Notes: a model not told the origin generated them from the sequence alone. A DNA stretch of 64,000 nucleotides from the human T2T-CHM13v2.0 reference genome, Homo sapiens (GCF_009914755.1 NC_060936.1); one strand, 5' to 3'. Positions 16,236 through 22,200 are shown, numbered from the stretch's first letter. Made by a program: numbers and translations.

Positions 16236-18373
16236 ATCTATGTGACAGTAAATTTGGTCAGTCCCTTTATTCAACATCCTCAGTAAGGTTAGATTATGTT
16301 GAGTTTCTACAGATTCTATTAGAGCCCACACTTTTTTTTTTAATGCCATTGACTTGATTACAAAGACAGGTTAGTTGTCCTGCATGATGTCCTAAATTCT
16401 GACTTTGACTAAATATTTCCTCCTAGTGTTACCTAACTTTTTCCTCTATCTTCTATTTTTCTTGTAGACTACAGGCTTGAATAGATTCAGGTTTAAGGTT
16501 TTGCTTTGTATTGCTTAGTTTATGACTACTTCATAGGTGGTGCTGTATGCTTCCTATTGCCTCATATTCAAAAGCATGCAATAGCTGGTTGTTTCACTTA
16601 CAGTGGCTGCTAAGATGGATCAGTGAGTTCAAGTGGTGGCATCAACCTTTTTACCTAATGATTTTGTCATCTATTGATAACCAGTATTTAAGTCATTTTA
16701 TTAGGAGCTACAAAATGTTGACTTTCTAATACTACATTTATTATCTGTAATTATTCTATATAGAACTCTTATCTAGTAGGGTTATTTGATTTCCAGGAAA
16801 TACTGTTCATACTGGAAAGGTGATATAAAATCTCGGTTCTTTCCCCTTAATTATCAGTTTTTGGAGTAATGAGTTGGTGCACAGCAACCTTTGCTCGATT
16901 CATTCACTATGGCGTGTTTGTTCTTTCCTCTTTAAAAAAATTATGACTTTTTATTATTTATATATTTGTTTATCTACTTGAGACAGGGTCTCACTCTGTC
17001 ACCCAGGCTGGAGTGCAGTGGTGCGAACACAACTCACTGTAGCCTCAATCTCCTGGGCTTAAGCAATCTTCTCACCTCAGCCCCCAGAGTAATATTTTTA
17101 TTTATTTTAATCAATTGAAATAATAATTCTTCTTGATGTTCAAATCATCTTATCTTTGACCAAAAGGACCCTCTTCAAGCTGGCTTATGGAATTTTTTGT
17201 TATTTGATGTGTCCCATCATTAGCCTTTGATAATGTTTTTACTTTCTGGGGCAACAAGCTGTTCCAAGCTTATTTTTCTTCCTTTTCTTTTTTTTTTTCC
17301 AATTTTATTTTGTACTTTTTCCGCCCTGGACCTGGTTTAGGTGTGGTGCTTTTAATGAAAAATGGTATGAATTTCAGCTATTCTAATTGTGGATAGTGAT
17401 ATTTCATTGTGGTTTTAATTTGCGTTTCTCTGATGACTAATGATTTTGAGCATCTTTCCATGTGCTGATTGATCATTCATATATCTTCTTTGGTAAAAGC
17501 ATCTATTCACTGGGAGGCGGAGGTTGCCATGAGCCGAGATACACCACTGCACTCCAGCCTAGGGGACACAGCAAGACTCTGTCTCAAAAAAAAAATAAAA
17601 AGTGTCTGTTCAAATCTTTCACTCATTTTAAGAAAATGGGTTGTCATTTTTTTCCTATGGAACAGAATTTATTGGATAGTAGCATTTTAGGAAAAATATA
17701 AGCTCTACTATATATATATATAAATCTATATAGATAGATAGATAGATAGATACAATCAACTGTAAAGTCCATCTCAACTTCAGAAAATGTAAAGACATGT
17801 CCATCTTAGAAATGAAGAAATGGCTTCCTTGCAAGTTTGCAAGAACATTAGTGACATAATGTATAAAGTACTTAACATAAGTGTTCAAAGGGTAACTGTT
17901 GTTACTATTATCAACTGTATTAATTAAACTGTTTTGAGATTTAACACACATGTTACAGACTTTAAGAAAGCAGCTGAGTGCAGGTTTTTTGTTTTAGTTT
18001 TGCGTTTATGCCAATGTGAAAATATGAACAGCTCAGTTCTACATTCTGTTCCCTGAAAATACCACGAGAGCTATTAGACAGTCTTGAAAGGCAGTATCTA
18101 ACATAAGCTTTGTGTGTTCATGGATATTTGTTCAATAATAACATTTAAATAATGAGGGAGGCCACTTCTAAAGACTTATCATTTACCTGATCTACACAAT
18201 ATCTAGCATAGGACCAGTTCTCAATTGACGGCAAACAGTCCTAGCAGGTCACTTCATTTTGAACAGACATTGCAATTGCACTTGAGAAATCATGCCAAGT
18301 TTTGCAGGGATTGTCCTTGGACTTGTCACCACGAAGACATAACTCATGCTATTTACATATTATAGCATTTTCT

Positions 18374-18667
18374 TTCTTTTTTTTTTTGAGACGGAGTCTC
18401 ACTCTGTTGCCCAGGCTGGAGTGCAGTGGTGCGATCTCTGCTCACTGCATGTTCTGCCTCCCGGGTTCACGCCATTCTCCTGCCTCAGCCTCCTGAGTAG
18501 CTAGGACTACAGGCGCCCACCACCACACCCAGCTAATTTTTTGTATTTTTAGTAGAGACGGAGTTTCACCATGTTAGTCAGGATGGTCTCAATCTCCTGA
18601 CCTCGTGATCTACCCACCTCAGCCTCCCAAAGTGCTGGGATTACAGGCGTGAGCCACCGTGCCGGGC
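18374..18667 (-). repeat. AluY inside the transduced segment
   Basis: 16-bp TSD tattatagcattttct at 18358 and 18668. Confidence 0.9.
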
Positions 18668-18740
18668 TATTATAGCATTTTCTAGACTAGTTCAATCTGC
18701 AATGTCCTTGCACTGACCAGGGCTCCATTTCCTTTATCAG

Positions 18741-18878
18741 AGGGCTATGATGGAAATGATGTGGAGTTCACCTGGCTGAGACGGAATGACTCTGTGCATG
18801 GGCTGGAAACCCTGTGGCTTGCTTAGTACACCATACAATGGTATTTCACCTTGGACACCAGATTGCAGCAGGAGACAG
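18741..18878 (+). pseudogene. GABRP: Isolated, decayed copy of one GABRP (GABA-A receptor pi subunit) coding exon
   Basis: Acceptor tttcctttatcag|, 138 bp, donor AG|gtaact. From 18743 it reads [45 protein letters not shown], versus GABRP as recalled [46 protein letters not shown]. In-frame TAG at 18824-18826. No other receptor exon seen in the window. Confidence 0.9.
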
Positions 18879-18974
18879 GTAACTCATGTGACAATTTTTT
18901 TTTTTTTAATTTTTACCATTGTTTTCGTAGATATTCCTAGGCCAGTTCTAAGAGTTTGTTTCTTGGGAGATTAG

Positions 18975-19281
18975 TGCTGGAGGCCAGAAGTCTGAGATCA
19001 AGGTTGGTTTTTTCTGAGGCCTCTCTCCTTGGCTTGGAAACAGCCGTTTTCTCGGTGTCTTCACATGGTCTTTTGCTCTGTACCTGTCCAAATTTCCTTT
19101 TCTTATAAGGACATCACTTGTATAAGATAAGGGTTTTCCCCTCATTTTAACTTAATTACCTCTTTAAAGGCCCTATCTCCAAACACAGTTACATTCCGAG
19201 GTACTGCAGGTCAGGGCTTCAGCACATGAATTTTGGGCAAGGATGGAGAGGGTTGGAAACAATACAATTCACCCCGTAACA
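18975..19281 (-). mobile_element. MLT1A/B-type MaLR LTR fragment inside the transduced segment
   Basis: ggaggccagaagtctgagatcaaggt, cttataaggacatca, ggccctatctccaaa, acaattcaccccgtaaca. Confidence 0.75.
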
Positions 19282-22200
19282 CCATATCTGACTCCTCTCA
19301 CTAGCCTCCTCAAAGAGTGAGGGGTTACTGTGTGTCCTTTTCAGATTCAAATTAAACAAGCTTTTGCTCTGTCAGCCAATTCTGGGAAACCAAGTTTGGT
19401 TTGGGCAGCCAGTCAGGTTGTCTTTTTATTACTAAGTTGTAAGAGTTTTTTTTTTTTTTTTTTTTTTTTTTTTGAGATGGAGTCTTGCTCTGTCACCCAG
19501 GCTGGAGTGCAGTGGTGCAATCTTGGCTCTCTGCATCCTTTGCCTCCTGGGCTCAAGCCATCCTCCCACCTCAGCCTCCAGAGTAGCTGGGACGACAGGC
19601 ACGTGCCACCTTGGCTGGCTAATTTTTTTGTATTTTTGGTAGAGATGGGGTTTCATCATGTTGGCCAGGCTGGTCTTGAACTCCTGAACTCAAGTGATCC
19701 TCCTGCCTCAGCCTCCCAAAGTGCTGGGATTACAGGCGTAAGCCACTGTGCCCGGCCAGTTGTGAGAATTTTGTATGTATTCTGACTACCAGTCCTCTGT
19801 CAGATATATGTATTATGATGATTTCTCCCAGCCTGTGGCTTGCCTTTTAATTTTCTTAATTTTGTCTTTCAAAGAGCAGAAGTTTTGCATTTTGATAAAA
19901 ATGCAACTTACCAATTATTTCTTTTATGGTTTCTGCTTTGGCAAGTTTGTAAATATTTTTTTCCCTGTGTTGCATGGTTTTAGCAATTATCTTTAGGTCT
20001 ATGATCCACATGGAGTTAATTTTTGTGTGTGGTGTGAGGTAGGGATTGAGGTTTTTTTTTTTCCCAATATAGATATTCAGAATTTAGGCTGGGTGTGGTA
20101 GATGACATCTGTAATCCCAGCACTTTGGGAGGCCAAGATGGTTAATTGCTTGACGTCAGGAGTTCGAGACTAGCCTGGGCAATATGGTGAAACCCTGTCT
20201 CTATCAAAAATACAAAAAAATTATCTGGGTGTGGTAGCATGCATCTGTAGTCCCAGCTACTTGGGAGGCTGAGGTGGGAGGATCGCTTGAGCCCAGGAGG
20301 CAGAAGTTGCAGTGAGCCAAGATGGTGCCACTGCACTCCAGTCTGGGTGACAGAGCCAAACCCTATCTCATTAAAAAAAAAAAAAAGAGAGAGAGAAGAA
20401 AAGGGAAAAGAAGATATGCAGTTGTTCCTGCACCATTTGTTGAAAAGACTGGAATGTTGATTTTAATAATGCATGTAAATTCTCCACCACCTTGGGAAAT
20501 GGTGTTGGCTGAAAATTACATGTGCCCTGATAACATATGCTTTAACAGAGTACCTGGTGAGTGGAATGAGAATGTGGTGGTTTGCATGAGTAACTTTGCA
20601 TTTCTGAACTGTTTTTCAATGCCTCCATTCATATTGGTAATTGAGGTCATTGGGTTAGTAAGGCAAGCAATCAGTGGCAGGAAAGCATTTTCAGGCACAT
20701 AGTAGGTAACTCAAGTAAAGAGTGAAACCCTTCCAAATGATTAAAAGAATTAAAAAAAAAAAAAAAAAGAGTGAAGTCCTGGGCACAGCTGTTAGAAATC
20801 TAGACAGCTGGCCAGGCTTAGTGGCTCACACCTGTAATCCTAGCACTTGGGAGGCCGAGGCAGGTGGATCACTTGAGGTCAGGAGTTCGAGACCAGCCTG
20901 GCCAACATACTGAAATCCCTGTCTCTACTAAAAATAAAAAATTAGCTGGGCACAGTGGCGGGTGCCTGTAATCCCAGCTACTGGGGAGGCTGAGGCAGAA
21001 GAGTCAGTTGAACCCGAGAGGCGGAGGTTGCAGTGAGCTGAGATTGCGCCACTGCATGCGCCACTGCACTCCAGCCTGGGTGACAAGAGCAAGACTTTGT
21101 ATCAAAAAGAAAAAAAAGAAATGTAGACAGTTGCATGACAGTTCTAGTATTAATAACATTTATCATCAGTGCTCTTGTTCTTGATGTATACTGATCACCA
21201 GGTGATGTCCACTGTTTACCAGAGGAATATCAGACTCTGGAAACATAACGGTAAGAAGCAAAGGAGAGGGGGCAGGTGATTTGTGGAGGATGCTCCAGCT
21301 GCCTTTCCCTGTTCTAGAGGAAGGGCAGCTCTAGATGCAGCCCTTGCCCTACGTGAAAGTGCGGGAACACTCCCTGAGAGGCAGGAGTGCTGGTTTCTCG
21401 AAGCTGTCATGGTCTCTGTGTTGGTGGTTATGCCTCTTTAGAGGTCTCCTGGAGGAGTGTCCTCATTGAAACTTTCCCTTTAGGCCATCAGGCCTTGGAG
21501 ACAGGGTTGGCATTTTACACATCTTTAATCCCTGCATGAGATTCACATTTCTTCTTAGGTCAGGGGATGCTGAAGCCTTGGTAAGCTGCAGCCTTTGTCA
21601 GTAGTTTTTTTTTTCCCCCACAATTATTCAGGGGGAACCAATGAACTCCATGAGGGTGGGGATTACATCTGTCTACTGTTGTATCTCCAGCACTTAGAAT
21701 GGTGCTTGGCACCTAAAGGATGCTCAAGTTGTTGAAGGAATTAATATTCCCTCTTTCAACAGCTGAGTGTCATAGCTTGGGTCTAGCCCTGCACAGTCAA
21801 GGAAAAATAAATCTGACTGGATTAGGACCTCCAATATCTGGGAAGGATCTGGAGCTGGTCTGCTGAAATGAGCTTAGGGAAAAGTTCAGAGGTACTTTCC
21901 CTCTTCTCACTTCCTCACTCCGCAATTTATGTGTCCAGTTTGATTGAATGGGATTCTTCTTAGGTGCCTACTAGGATGTGAGTCTCACCATTAACCTAGC
22001 CCATTTGGTGATGAACCAGATTTTCTGCATAGCTCCTTTTAGCCTTCTCTTTTCTTCCCAGTGGAGTTGGCCTCAGTGCCCGGAAGCCACAGCTTTGTCC
22101 TGTGTCCTGGCTATCCCTGAATCCACAATGGTACCATAATTTTGACAGCAAGTTTCACCAGTACCCATAGACTCCTATGCTGAGGTTCCTGTCTATCAGA

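What the first reader, a model, noticed from the sequence alone, without database searches (positions are those of the whole stretch)
17639..19427. The GABRP exon arrived as an antisense, polyadenylated, TSD-flanked retro-insertion (orphan 3' transduction)
Seen: the host L1M breaks at ggttgtcatttt (17639-17650) and resumes at ggttgtcttttt (19416-19427), next to a TTTT/A endonuclease-type site. On the minus strand the insert ends AATAAA-14 nt-A7. Knowledge: TSD, poly(A) signal, tail and EN site are hallmarks of L1 target-primed reverse transcription. An RNA antisense to a gene is not spliced at that gene's sites, which explains the retained introns. Inference: a source element (L1 or LTR promoter) antisense within GABRP read through the exon, and only the transduced tail was copied here. 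Sibling insertions sharing the same poly(A) end may form a dispersed exon family. Weak points are the short tail and one TSD mismatch.
Basis: partly seen in the sequence, partly recalled or inferred. Interest (0 to 1): 0.8.

Follow-up and report, generated by a model that had tools for sequence, protein, structure and literature searches.

The report
Retrocopy of a spliced GABRP-antisense RNA
The stray GABRP exon on chromosome 12 is part of an old, dead LINE-1-made copy of a four-exon non-coding RNA that was transcribed backwards across the GABRP gene on chromosome 5, an ordinary kind of event that happens to preserve the structure of an ancient antisense transcript.

Summary
An L1-type repeat is split at 17639-17650 and 19416-19427 by a 12-nt duplication (11 of 12 identical). 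The site reads TTTTT/AT, and the minus strand of the insert ends AATAAA-14 nt-A7.

The insert is not one contiguous read-through. It is four collinear pieces of the GABRP locus on chr5 (G000:C5 171344558-171366992), separated there by 2,934, 16,183 and 1,810 nt. On the chr5 minus strand all three gaps begin GT and end AG (GTAAGT..CAG, GTAAGA..AAG, GTGAGT..CAG). On the plus strand they read CT..AC. The junctions these predict occur ungapped in the window (21, 23 and 22 of 24).

So 17651-19415 is a processed retrocopy of a spliced, polyadenylated four-exon RNA antisense to GABRP. Its last exon covers the GABRP exon for residues 182-226 plus flanking intron. Its first two exons lie 12.8-15 kb beyond the GABRP stop codon.

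Retro-insertion and antisense origin are supported. "Orphan 3' transduction" and a dispersed sibling family are not, since only chr5 and chr12 carry these sequences. The copy is about 87% identical to its parent, carries a stop codon and was later hit by an Alu. It is a new member of a known kind, and no outgroup or expression data were available.

The parts
17639..17650 (.). Left copy of the target-site duplication (GGTTGTCATTTT), part of the host L1-type repeat
   Evidence: (D19)
17651..17653 (-). Residual poly(A) tail. These are 3 T on the + strand; with the 4 T of the duplication they read as T7 at 17647-17653
   Evidence: chr5 has no A run at this place
17654..18895 (-). Copy of the last exon (exon 4) of the antisense RNA. 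It corresponds to chr5 171344558-171345541 and is interrupted by a later Alu
   Evidence: Identity 83-89% by segment
17668..17673 (-). Polyadenylation signal AATAAA (TTTATT on +), 14 nt before the tail and conserved in the chr5 parent
18741..18878 (+). Copy of the GABRP coding exon (residues 182-226 of GABA-A receptor subunit pi). It is sense on +, so antisense within the copied RNA. 123 of 138 nt identical, with a TAG stop in frame
18373..18667 (-). Alu inserted after the retro-insertion, not part of the retrocopy. It has its own perfect 15-nt duplication at 18358-18372 and 18668-18682; chr5 has that 15-mer once
18896..18972 (-). Copy of exon 3, corresponding to chr5 171348476-171348546. The T7CCT4 at its start in chr5 has become T13AAT5 here
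18973..19348 (-). Copy of exon 2, corresponding to chr5 171364730-171365119. Most of it is the MLT1-like interspersed repeat plus unique sequence on its right
19349..19411 (-). Copy of exon 1 (or of its 3' part), corresponding to chr5 171366930-171366992, 92% identical
19412..19415 (.). Four bases (GTCA) at the 5' junction that match neither chr5 nor the host repeat
19416..19427 (.). Right copy of the target-site duplication (GGTTGTCTTTTT), followed by A. This gives the nick site TTTTT/AT

Best explanation
Window 17651-19415 is an L1-mediated processed retrocopy (a non-coding processed pseudogene) of a spliced, polyadenylated, four-exon RNA. That RNA was transcribed from the minus strand of the GABRP locus on chr5, convergent with and antisense to GABRP.

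The parent RNA:
- It started at or upstream of chr5 171366992, about 15 kb beyond the GABRP stop codon.
- Its second exon came from an MLT1-like repeat.
- It spliced over the last two GABRP coding exons and took a 71-nt exon from the GABRP intron after the TM1 exon.
- It ended in a 984-nt last exon that runs backwards through the GABRP exon for residues 182-226 and 829 nt of the intron before it.
- Its 3' end was cut about 14 nt after an AATAAA.

The insertion: L1 endonuclease nicked an old L1-type repeat on chr12 at TTTTT/AT. The T run primed on the poly(A) tail, the spliced RNA was reverse transcribed, and a 12-nt target-site duplication formed. An Alu landed in the copy later. The copy has decayed to about 87% identity and has no sign of function.

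Shown here: the four-piece collinear homology, the splice signals, the junctions, the poly(A) signal, the duplication and the nick site. Inferred: that L1 was the reverse transcriptase, that the RNA was made in the germ line, and the age.
For: Four collinear pieces of one locus.
- BLAST against 100 kb of chr5 gave window 17655-18372 plus 18668-18894 = C5 171344559-171345540.
- It also gave 18902-18972 = 171348476-171348546, 18973-19343 = 171364730-171365114 and 19348-19411 = 171366929-171366992, all + to +.
- Genome-wide, each piece matches only itself and that chr5 place. each gave 2 candidates, both scored.
- In one search the exon-2 piece matched chr5 at 83% over 371 nt, against 72-78% for the 38 other scored copies of the repeat.

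Splice sites on the minus strand only.
- The three chr5 gaps read GTGAGT..CAG (1,810 nt), GTAAGA..AAG (16,183 nt) and GTAAGT..CAG (2,934 nt), each with a pyrimidine-rich tract.
- Read on the plus strand, the same boundaries are CT..AC three times, so 0 of 6 are canonical.
- The 24-mers predicted by joining the chr5 exon ends are found ungapped at window 18884-18907 (21/24), 18961-18984 (23/24) and 19337-19360 (22/24).
- The insert without the Alu (1,448 nt) aligns to the virtual spliced product (1,508 nt) at 86.8% over 1,414 columns.

3' end and insertion site.
- AATAAA is conserved in chr5, and homology stops 14 nt after it, where the window has the A run.
- The duplication is 11/12, at a base rate of 1 in 62,211. 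It is present once in 8 of 8 aligned relatives of the host repeat. The nick site is TTTTT/AT.

Parent gene.
- The chr5 exon is 45/45 identical to GABA-A receptor subunit pi (PDB 8vsz_A residues 182-226).
- The TM1 and TM2-3 exons are at C5 171348336-425 and 171349238-444.
- The last coding exon is C5 171351627-171351926, residues 341-440 of 440.
Against: - The unambiguous poly(A) tail is only 3 nt (7 if the T of the duplication are counted), very short even for an old retrocopy.
- The duplication has one mismatch.
- At the exon 4/exon 3 junction the window has T where chr5 has the last A of exon 4. The T run is 6 longer than in chr5, so that junction is exact only to within 1 nt.
- Four bases at the 5' junction are unexplained.
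- No evidence was available that the parent RNA exists today: no annotation of chr5, no expression data, and nothing in the papers searched.
- No outgroup genome was available to show the empty site.
- An L1-type fragment lies about 235 nt beyond the poly(A) site on chr5, in the same orientation as the host repeat on chr12 (81% over 89 nt). At first sight this looks like homology running past the duplication. However, it is no closer than unrelated copies genome-wide (79-90%), the 233 nt between it and the poly(A) site match nothing in the window, and the chr12 repeat continues on the far side of the insert.
Confidence: 0.9

Rival explanations
1. One reading: an unspliced antisense read-through from an L1 or LTR within GABRP, of which only the transduced tail was copied (orphan 3' transduction).
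For: Antisense orientation, the poly(A) signal, the duplication and the nick site all fit. A high-copy repeat of unknown family lies about 230 nt upstream of exon 1 on chr5 (C5 171367219-171367559; 2,857 candidates, 40 scored, 78-84% identity). It could be a promoter-bearing element.
Against: The copied sequence is not contiguous in chr5: three stretches of 1.8, 16.2 and 2.9 kb are missing exactly at GT-AG. By the definition read in passages of PMC7058536, a transduction is unique sequence immediately downstream of a source L1. No similarity to L1 3' regions was found between exon 1 and 17.5 kb upstream. The probe set was only 11 L1 loci, so other L1 subfamilies could be missed.
Confidence: 0.03
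2. A chimeric retro-insertion made by template switching of the L1 reverse transcriptase between several separate RNAs.
For: The insert is made of several pieces within one pair of duplications. An A-rich run on the minus strand (18895-18914) sits at one junction and looks like an internal poly(A) tail.
Against: All pieces come from one locus, in genomic order and in the same orientation. All three junctions coincide with canonical donor and acceptor sites. The A-rich run is templated: chr5 exon 3 ends in A7 on the minus strand, directly before GTAAGT.
Confidence: 0.03
3. DNA-level (segmental or repair-mediated) duplication of GABRP fragments into chr12, followed by deletions.
For: Both loci have an L1-type fragment on the left in the same orientation.
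Against: Homology stops within the duplications at both ends. Three deletions would each have to fall exactly on GT..AG of the minus strand. The poly(A) signal, tail remnant, 12-nt duplication and TTTTT/A site would all be coincidences. The chr5 L1 fragment is no closer to the window than unrelated copies are.
Confidence: 0.02
4. Retrocopy of a sense GABRP pre-mRNA or alternative mRNA with retained intron.
For: The exon copy is sense on the + strand and is flanked by GABRP intron.
Against: There is no poly(A) at the right end. The tail, the signal and the nick-site geometry are all on the minus strand. Read on the + strand, 0 of 6 junction dinucleotides are canonical. The GABRP exons that lie between the pieces are absent.
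Confidence: 0.01

Closest known systems
L1-mediated processed pseudogenes (retrocopies of spliced mRNAs)
   Same: Introns are removed at canonical sites, and a polyadenylation signal and tail remnant sit at the 3' end. A target-site duplication flanks the insert at a TTTT/A-type nick site, and the intron-bearing parent lies on another chromosome. Passages of PMC7058536 describe processed pseudogenes as mRNA copies reverse transcribed and inserted by L1 machinery. The abstract of PMC5408686 (listings) says such reverse transcriptase can copy any RNA in the cell.
   Different: The template was not the mRNA of the gene whose exon it carries. It was a non-coding RNA from the opposite strand, so the copy looks like an exon with retained introns, and pipelines that search with protein-coding parents would see only an isolated exon fragment.
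Orphan L1 3' transduction
   Same: Unique non-L1 sequence is moved by L1 machinery without any L1 sequence, with poly(A) and a duplication.
   Different: The sequence is spliced from four places over 22 kb and is not a contiguous stretch directly downstream of a source L1. No L1 3' end was found next to it at the parent locus.
Natural antisense transcripts and convergent lncRNAs overlapping the 3' half of a protein-coding gene (the inferred parent RNA)
   Same: The RNA is multi-exon and polyadenylated, with its own GT-AG introns. It overlaps a sense exon, and one of its exons and donor sites comes from an interspersed repeat.
   Different: It is known here only from its retrocopy and from intact signals in chr5. 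No name or report for a GABRP antisense RNA was found, and annotation of chr5 was not available to me.
Chimeric retrogenes formed by template switching (recalled from the literature, not read here)
   Same: Several pieces lie within a single duplication-flanked insertion.
   Different: The junctions are splice junctions of one transcription unit, not switches between unrelated RNAs.

Membership tests
L1-mediated processed retrocopy | Introns of the parent locus are precisely absent, with canonical splice signals at the parent | tested here: met
   Three introns (1,810, 16,183 and 2,934 nt) read GT..AG on the chr5 minus strand. The predicted junction 24-mers are present at 21/24, 23/24 and 22/24.
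L1-mediated processed retrocopy | Polyadenylation signal at the 3' end, with homology to the parent ending at the cleavage site | tested here: met
   AATAAA is conserved in chr5, and homology ends 14 nt after it.
L1-mediated processed retrocopy | Untemplated poly(A) tail | tested here: inconclusive
   There is an A7 run on the minus strand, but 4 of the 7 can belong to the duplication, so only 3 are unambiguous.
L1-mediated processed retrocopy | Target-site duplication flanking the insert exactly | tested here: met
   12 nt, 11/12 identical. The base rate is 1 of 62,211 at this spacing. The stretch is single in 8 of 8 aligned relatives of the host repeat.
L1-mediated processed retrocopy | Nick site of TTTT/A type on the priming strand | tested here: met
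   The right copy of the duplication reads TTTTT/AT.
L1-mediated processed retrocopy | Empty pre-insertion site in species that diverged earlier | not testable with these tools
   No other eukaryotic genome is held.
Orphan L1 3' transduction | The copied sequence is one contiguous stretch lying immediately downstream of a source L1 | tested here: not met
   There are four non-adjacent pieces. No L1 3'-region similarity was found within 17.5 kb upstream of exon 1 (with 11 L1 loci as probes).
DNA-level segmental duplication | Homology is continuous and runs past the proposed duplications | tested here: not met
   Homology starts at 17654/17655 and ends at 19411, and the flanks match chr5 only at repeat-family level.
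Natural antisense transcript of GABRP (parent RNA) | Transcribed from the opposite strand and overlapping a GABRP exon | tested here: met
   The strand follows from the splice signals and the poly(A) signal. The last exon contains the reverse complement of the exon for residues 182-226.
Natural antisense transcript of GABRP (parent RNA) | Detected as an RNA in present-day tissues or in annotation | not testable with these tools
   No chr5 annotation or expression data were available. Paper searches gave nothing specific.

The most novel reading that the evidence does not exclude
The retrocopy is a dated molecular fossil of a four-exon lncRNA convergent with GABRP that was expressed in the germ line of an early primate. 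All six splice dinucleotides and the AATAAA are still intact on human chr5, so the RNA may still be made, possibly unannotated, and may act on GABRP through its 138-nt exon overlap. The chr12 copy gives the exact junctions needed to look for it.
Probability: 0.25. Interest if true: 0.5.

Novelty: new member of a known kind. Interest (0 to 1): 0.35.

Why it matters
It explains an otherwise odd object: a lone GABRP exon with its introns in the wrong place, upstream of BICD1. The explanation is a standard mechanism, but with a non-standard template, namely an antisense non-coding RNA rather than the gene's mRNA.

Copies of this kind are invisible to pseudogene pipelines that start from protein-coding parents. 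They can also be misread as DNA-level exon duplications or exon shuffling.

The copy also records, base by base, the splicing pattern and poly(A) site of an antisense transcript of GABRP as it existed tens of millions of years ago. This gives precise junctions for testing whether that RNA still exists. The chr12 copy itself has no sign of function.

Tried and rejected
- Sibling insertions. I searched the genome with four Alu-free pieces of the insert and with the chr5 parent exon. each returned only the query itself and chr5. One search returned itself, chr12 and one 46-nt match at E 5.5e-5. There is no dispersed family at this sensitivity.
- Homology running past the duplication through the L1-type fragment on chr5 (171344236-171344324). 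Rejected as family-level similarity.
- The T13AAT5 run at 18895-18914 as an internal poly(A) tail, which would point to two RNAs. Rejected, because chr5 exon 3 starts with T7CCT4 directly after the donor site.
- A longer 19-nt duplication (16/19, family D19). Rejected, because 17654-17657 belongs to the chr5 homology.
- Pfam on the 45-residue chr5 exon found no family. The PDB sequence search identified it instead.
- Pfam on 22 stop-free frames downstream did not find the last GABRP exon. The PDB search of one of them did, and another gave nothing.
- Paper searches for a GABRP antisense RNA or pseudogene gave nothing relevant. The two papers opened (passages) mention GABRP only as an expressed gene.
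- Paper searches for retrocopies of lncRNAs as a described class also gave nothing. Six exact phrases for lncRNA retrocopies occurred in 6 papers, none on the subject (listing only).
- The family of the repeat upstream of exon 1 on chr5 could not be named without a repeat library.

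
Full report
**What is at the site**

The window is human chr12 (T2T-CHM13), in intergenic sequence about 34 kb upstream of BICD1 according to the hub's gene table. No gene or functional element is listed at 17.6-19.4 kb.

- GGTTGTCATTTT (17639-17650) recurs as GGTTGTCTTTTT (19416-19427), and the second copy is followed by A.
- On the minus strand the sequence next to the left copy reads AATAAA, 14 nt, A7 (printed).
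- A 12-mer match of 11/12 or better at this spacing occurs at 1 of 62,211 window positions, which is this pair. Over 54 other spacings the rate is 46 of 681,901.

The flanks belong to one old interspersed repeat.
- Window 17330-17504 has 3,614 first-look candidates genome-wide, 40 scored, at 79-90% identity.
- I aligned 8 of the 11 fetched relatives. L031, L038 and L039 were left out because one search showed a deletion, an Alu insertion or a poor alignment there.
- In that alignment the left flank and the right flank of the window fall on the same columns, so the relatives carry that stretch once. The 12-mer is therefore a true duplication of the target.
No repeat library was available to test it.

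**Where the insert came from**

A whole-genome search with the insert found chr5 as the only non-Alu match. BLAST against 100 kb of chr5 shows four collinear pieces rather than one stretch of homology, all plus to plus:

| Window | chr5 (G000:C5) | Identity |
|---|---|---|
| 17655-18372 and 18668-18894 | 171344559-171345540 | 81-87% |
| 18902-18972 | 171348476-171348546 | 84.5% |
| 18973-19343 | 171364730-171365114 | 83% |
| 19348-19411 | 171366929-171366992 | 92% |

Each piece is unique to these two loci.
- each gave 2 first-look candidates, both scored: the query itself and chr5.
The chr5 copy matches at 83% over 371 nt, including unique sequence to its right. The 38 other scored copies match at 72-78% over shorter spans.

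**The pieces are exons of a minus-strand RNA**

I printed the chr5 boundaries and re-read them with corrected coordinates. On the minus strand the three chr5 gaps are:

| Intron | Length | 5' splice site | 3' splice site |
|---|---|---|---|
| 1 | 1,810 nt | TAATTT\|GTGAGT | ...TTGTAATGCAG\|GAAATT |
| 2 | 16,183 nt | AGAACT\|GTAAGA | ...TTTCTCTGTAAAAG\|AATCTC |
| 3 | 2,934 nt | AAAAAA\|GTAAGT | ...TTATTTCATACAG\|TTTGTC |

- Read on the plus strand, the same boundaries are CT..AC three times, so none of the six is canonical.
- Joining the chr5 exon ends predicts three junction 24-mers. Each aligns ungapped in the window: 18884-18907 (21/24), 18961-18984 (23/24) and 19337-19360 (22/24).
- The T13AAT5 run at 18895-18914 looked like an internal tail. 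It is the expanded T7CCT4 with which exon 3 begins on chr5, directly after the donor.
- With the Alu removed, the insert (1,448 nt) aligns to the virtual spliced product (1,508 nt) at 86.8% over 1,414 columns.

**The 3' and 5' ends**

- Homology to chr5 begins at 17654/17655, 14 nt from the conserved AATAAA. Beyond it chr5 has no A run, while the window has T7 on the plus strand followed by the host repeat.
- Four of those seven T can belong to the duplication, so the unambiguous tail is only 3 nt. This is the weakest element.
- At the other end homology stops at 19411, and four bases (GTCA) precede the right duplication. Such extra bases are common at L1 5' junctions (recalled).
- The geometry fits target-primed reverse transcription. 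The plus strand was nicked at TTTTT/AT, the T run primed on poly(A), and the cDNA extended rightwards.

**The parent locus**

- The chr5 exon translates to 45 residues identical to GABA-A receptor subunit pi (PDB 8vsz_A residues 182-226, E 8e-26).
- A genome search with Pfam PF02932 places the next GABRP exons at C5 171348336-425 (TM1) and 171349238-444 (TM2-3).
- A stop-free frame at C5 171351627-171351926 matches residues 341-440 of the 440-residue chain, so the stop codon follows at about 171351927.
- The antisense exon 3 therefore lies in the GABRP intron after the TM1 exon.
- The 16-kb antisense intron spans the last two GABRP coding exons.
- Antisense exons 2 and 1 lie 12.8-15 kb beyond the stop codon. 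This is probably beyond the gene, since I recall a 3' UTR of under 2 kb, but that was not tested.
- The last antisense exon (984 nt) covers 16 nt of the intron after the GABRP exon, the 138-nt exon itself and 829 nt of the intron before it. That is why the chr12 copy looks like an exon with retained introns.

**Decay and age**

- Non-coding columns are 86.1% identical (1,229 columns, Kimura two-parameter (K2P) distance 0.156).
- The exon copy has 15 differences in 138 nt and an in-frame TAG.
- With recalled neutral rates of about 1.1-2.2e-9 per site per year, this gives roughly 35-70 million years. This is a rough figure without outgroups.
- An Alu at 18373-18667 (minus orientation) has a perfect 15-nt duplication of its own (18358-18372 and 18668-18682). 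It is absent from chr5, which has the 15-mer once.

**Rivals**

- Contiguous read-through or orphan 3' transduction is contradicted by the splicing. As defined in passages of PMC7058536, a transduction is unique sequence immediately downstream of a source L1. A BLAST of chr5 171364000-171389999 against 11 L1 loci found no L1-like stretch (other than Alus carried by those loci) between exon 1 and 171384494 (the probe set is limited).
- Template-switch chimeras are unlikely, because all pieces are from one locus, in order, and joined at splice sites.
- A DNA-level copy would need three deletions exactly at minus-strand GT..AG, plus a coincidental signal, tail, duplication and nick site.
- An L1-type fragment on chr5 about 235 nt past the poly(A) site (81% to window 17401-17489) is no closer than unrelated copies. 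It is separated from the poly(A) site by 233 nt that match nothing in the window.
- A sense GABRP transcript is excluded by strand.

**Known or new**

- The mechanism is standard. Processed pseudogenes are RNA copies inserted by L1 machinery (PMC7058536 passages), and such reverse transcriptase can copy any cellular RNA (abstract of PMC5408686 in the listings).
- The template is less usual: a spliced antisense non-coding RNA.
- I found no paper naming a GABRP antisense RNA or this copy. The terms gave 39 and 1 papers. The two opened (passages) were irrelevant, and the rest were judged from the listing.
- Six exact phrases for lncRNA retrocopies occurred in only 6 papers, none on the subject by title or abstract.
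- Supplementary tables of retrocopy catalogues were not examined and may list this locus.
- I could not see chr5 annotation, expression data or other primate genomes. Whether the parent RNA still exists, and the exact age, therefore remain open.

**Verdict**

The specific mechanism (unspliced orphan transduction, with a sibling family) is wrong. The object is a decayed processed retrocopy of a four-exon GABRP-antisense RNA, a new member of a known kind.

Noticed in passing
window 18358-18682: An Alu in minus orientation (18373-18667) has a perfect 15-nt target-site duplication (18358-18372 and 18668-18682). The chr5 parent has that 15-mer once, so the Alu entered after the retro-insertion. Subfamily not determined.
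   Followed up: partly
window 18895-18914 versus G000:C5 171348476-171348488: The homopolymer at the exon 4/exon 3 junction is T13AAT5 in the copy and T7CCT4 in the parent. This slippage expansion mimics an internal poly(A) tail on the minus strand.
   Followed up: yes
window 17706-17753 versus G000:C5 171344620-171344716: A (TA)n/(GATA)n microsatellite in the copy corresponds to a longer, different AT-rich microsatellite in the parent. This is the only part of the last exon that does not align cleanly.
   Followed up: no
L025 7219-7620 (G000:C5 171367219-171367620): A high-copy repeat (2,857 first-look candidates, 40 scored, 78-84% identity) has a sharp terminus about 230 nt upstream (in the RNA's sense) of the retrocopy's 5' end. 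An Alu abuts it. It is a candidate promoter-bearing element for the antisense RNA, but its family and orientation could not be named without a repeat library.
   Followed up: partly
L013 1424-1890 (G000:C5 171364650-171365119) and window 18973-19290: Exon 2 of the antisense RNA is mostly an MLT1-like repeat, and its donor site (ACT|GTAAGA) lies inside that repeat. The repeat has therefore been exonised. By recall of MaLR LTR layout it seems to lie in the same sense as the RNA; this was not tested.
   Followed up: no
L011 6237-6325 (G000:C5 171344236-171344324): An L1-type fragment just beyond the antisense poly(A) site on chr5 resembles the host repeat of the chr12 insertion (81% over 89 nt, same orientation). 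I judged this a coincidence of repeat family, not extended homology.
   Followed up: yes
window 17505-17601 and 19447-19760: A partial Alu (3' part with its A tail) sits inside the host repeat 38 nt left of the duplication, and a full Alu sits 19 nt right of it. The host repeat has thus been hit at least three more times around the retrocopy.
   Followed up: no
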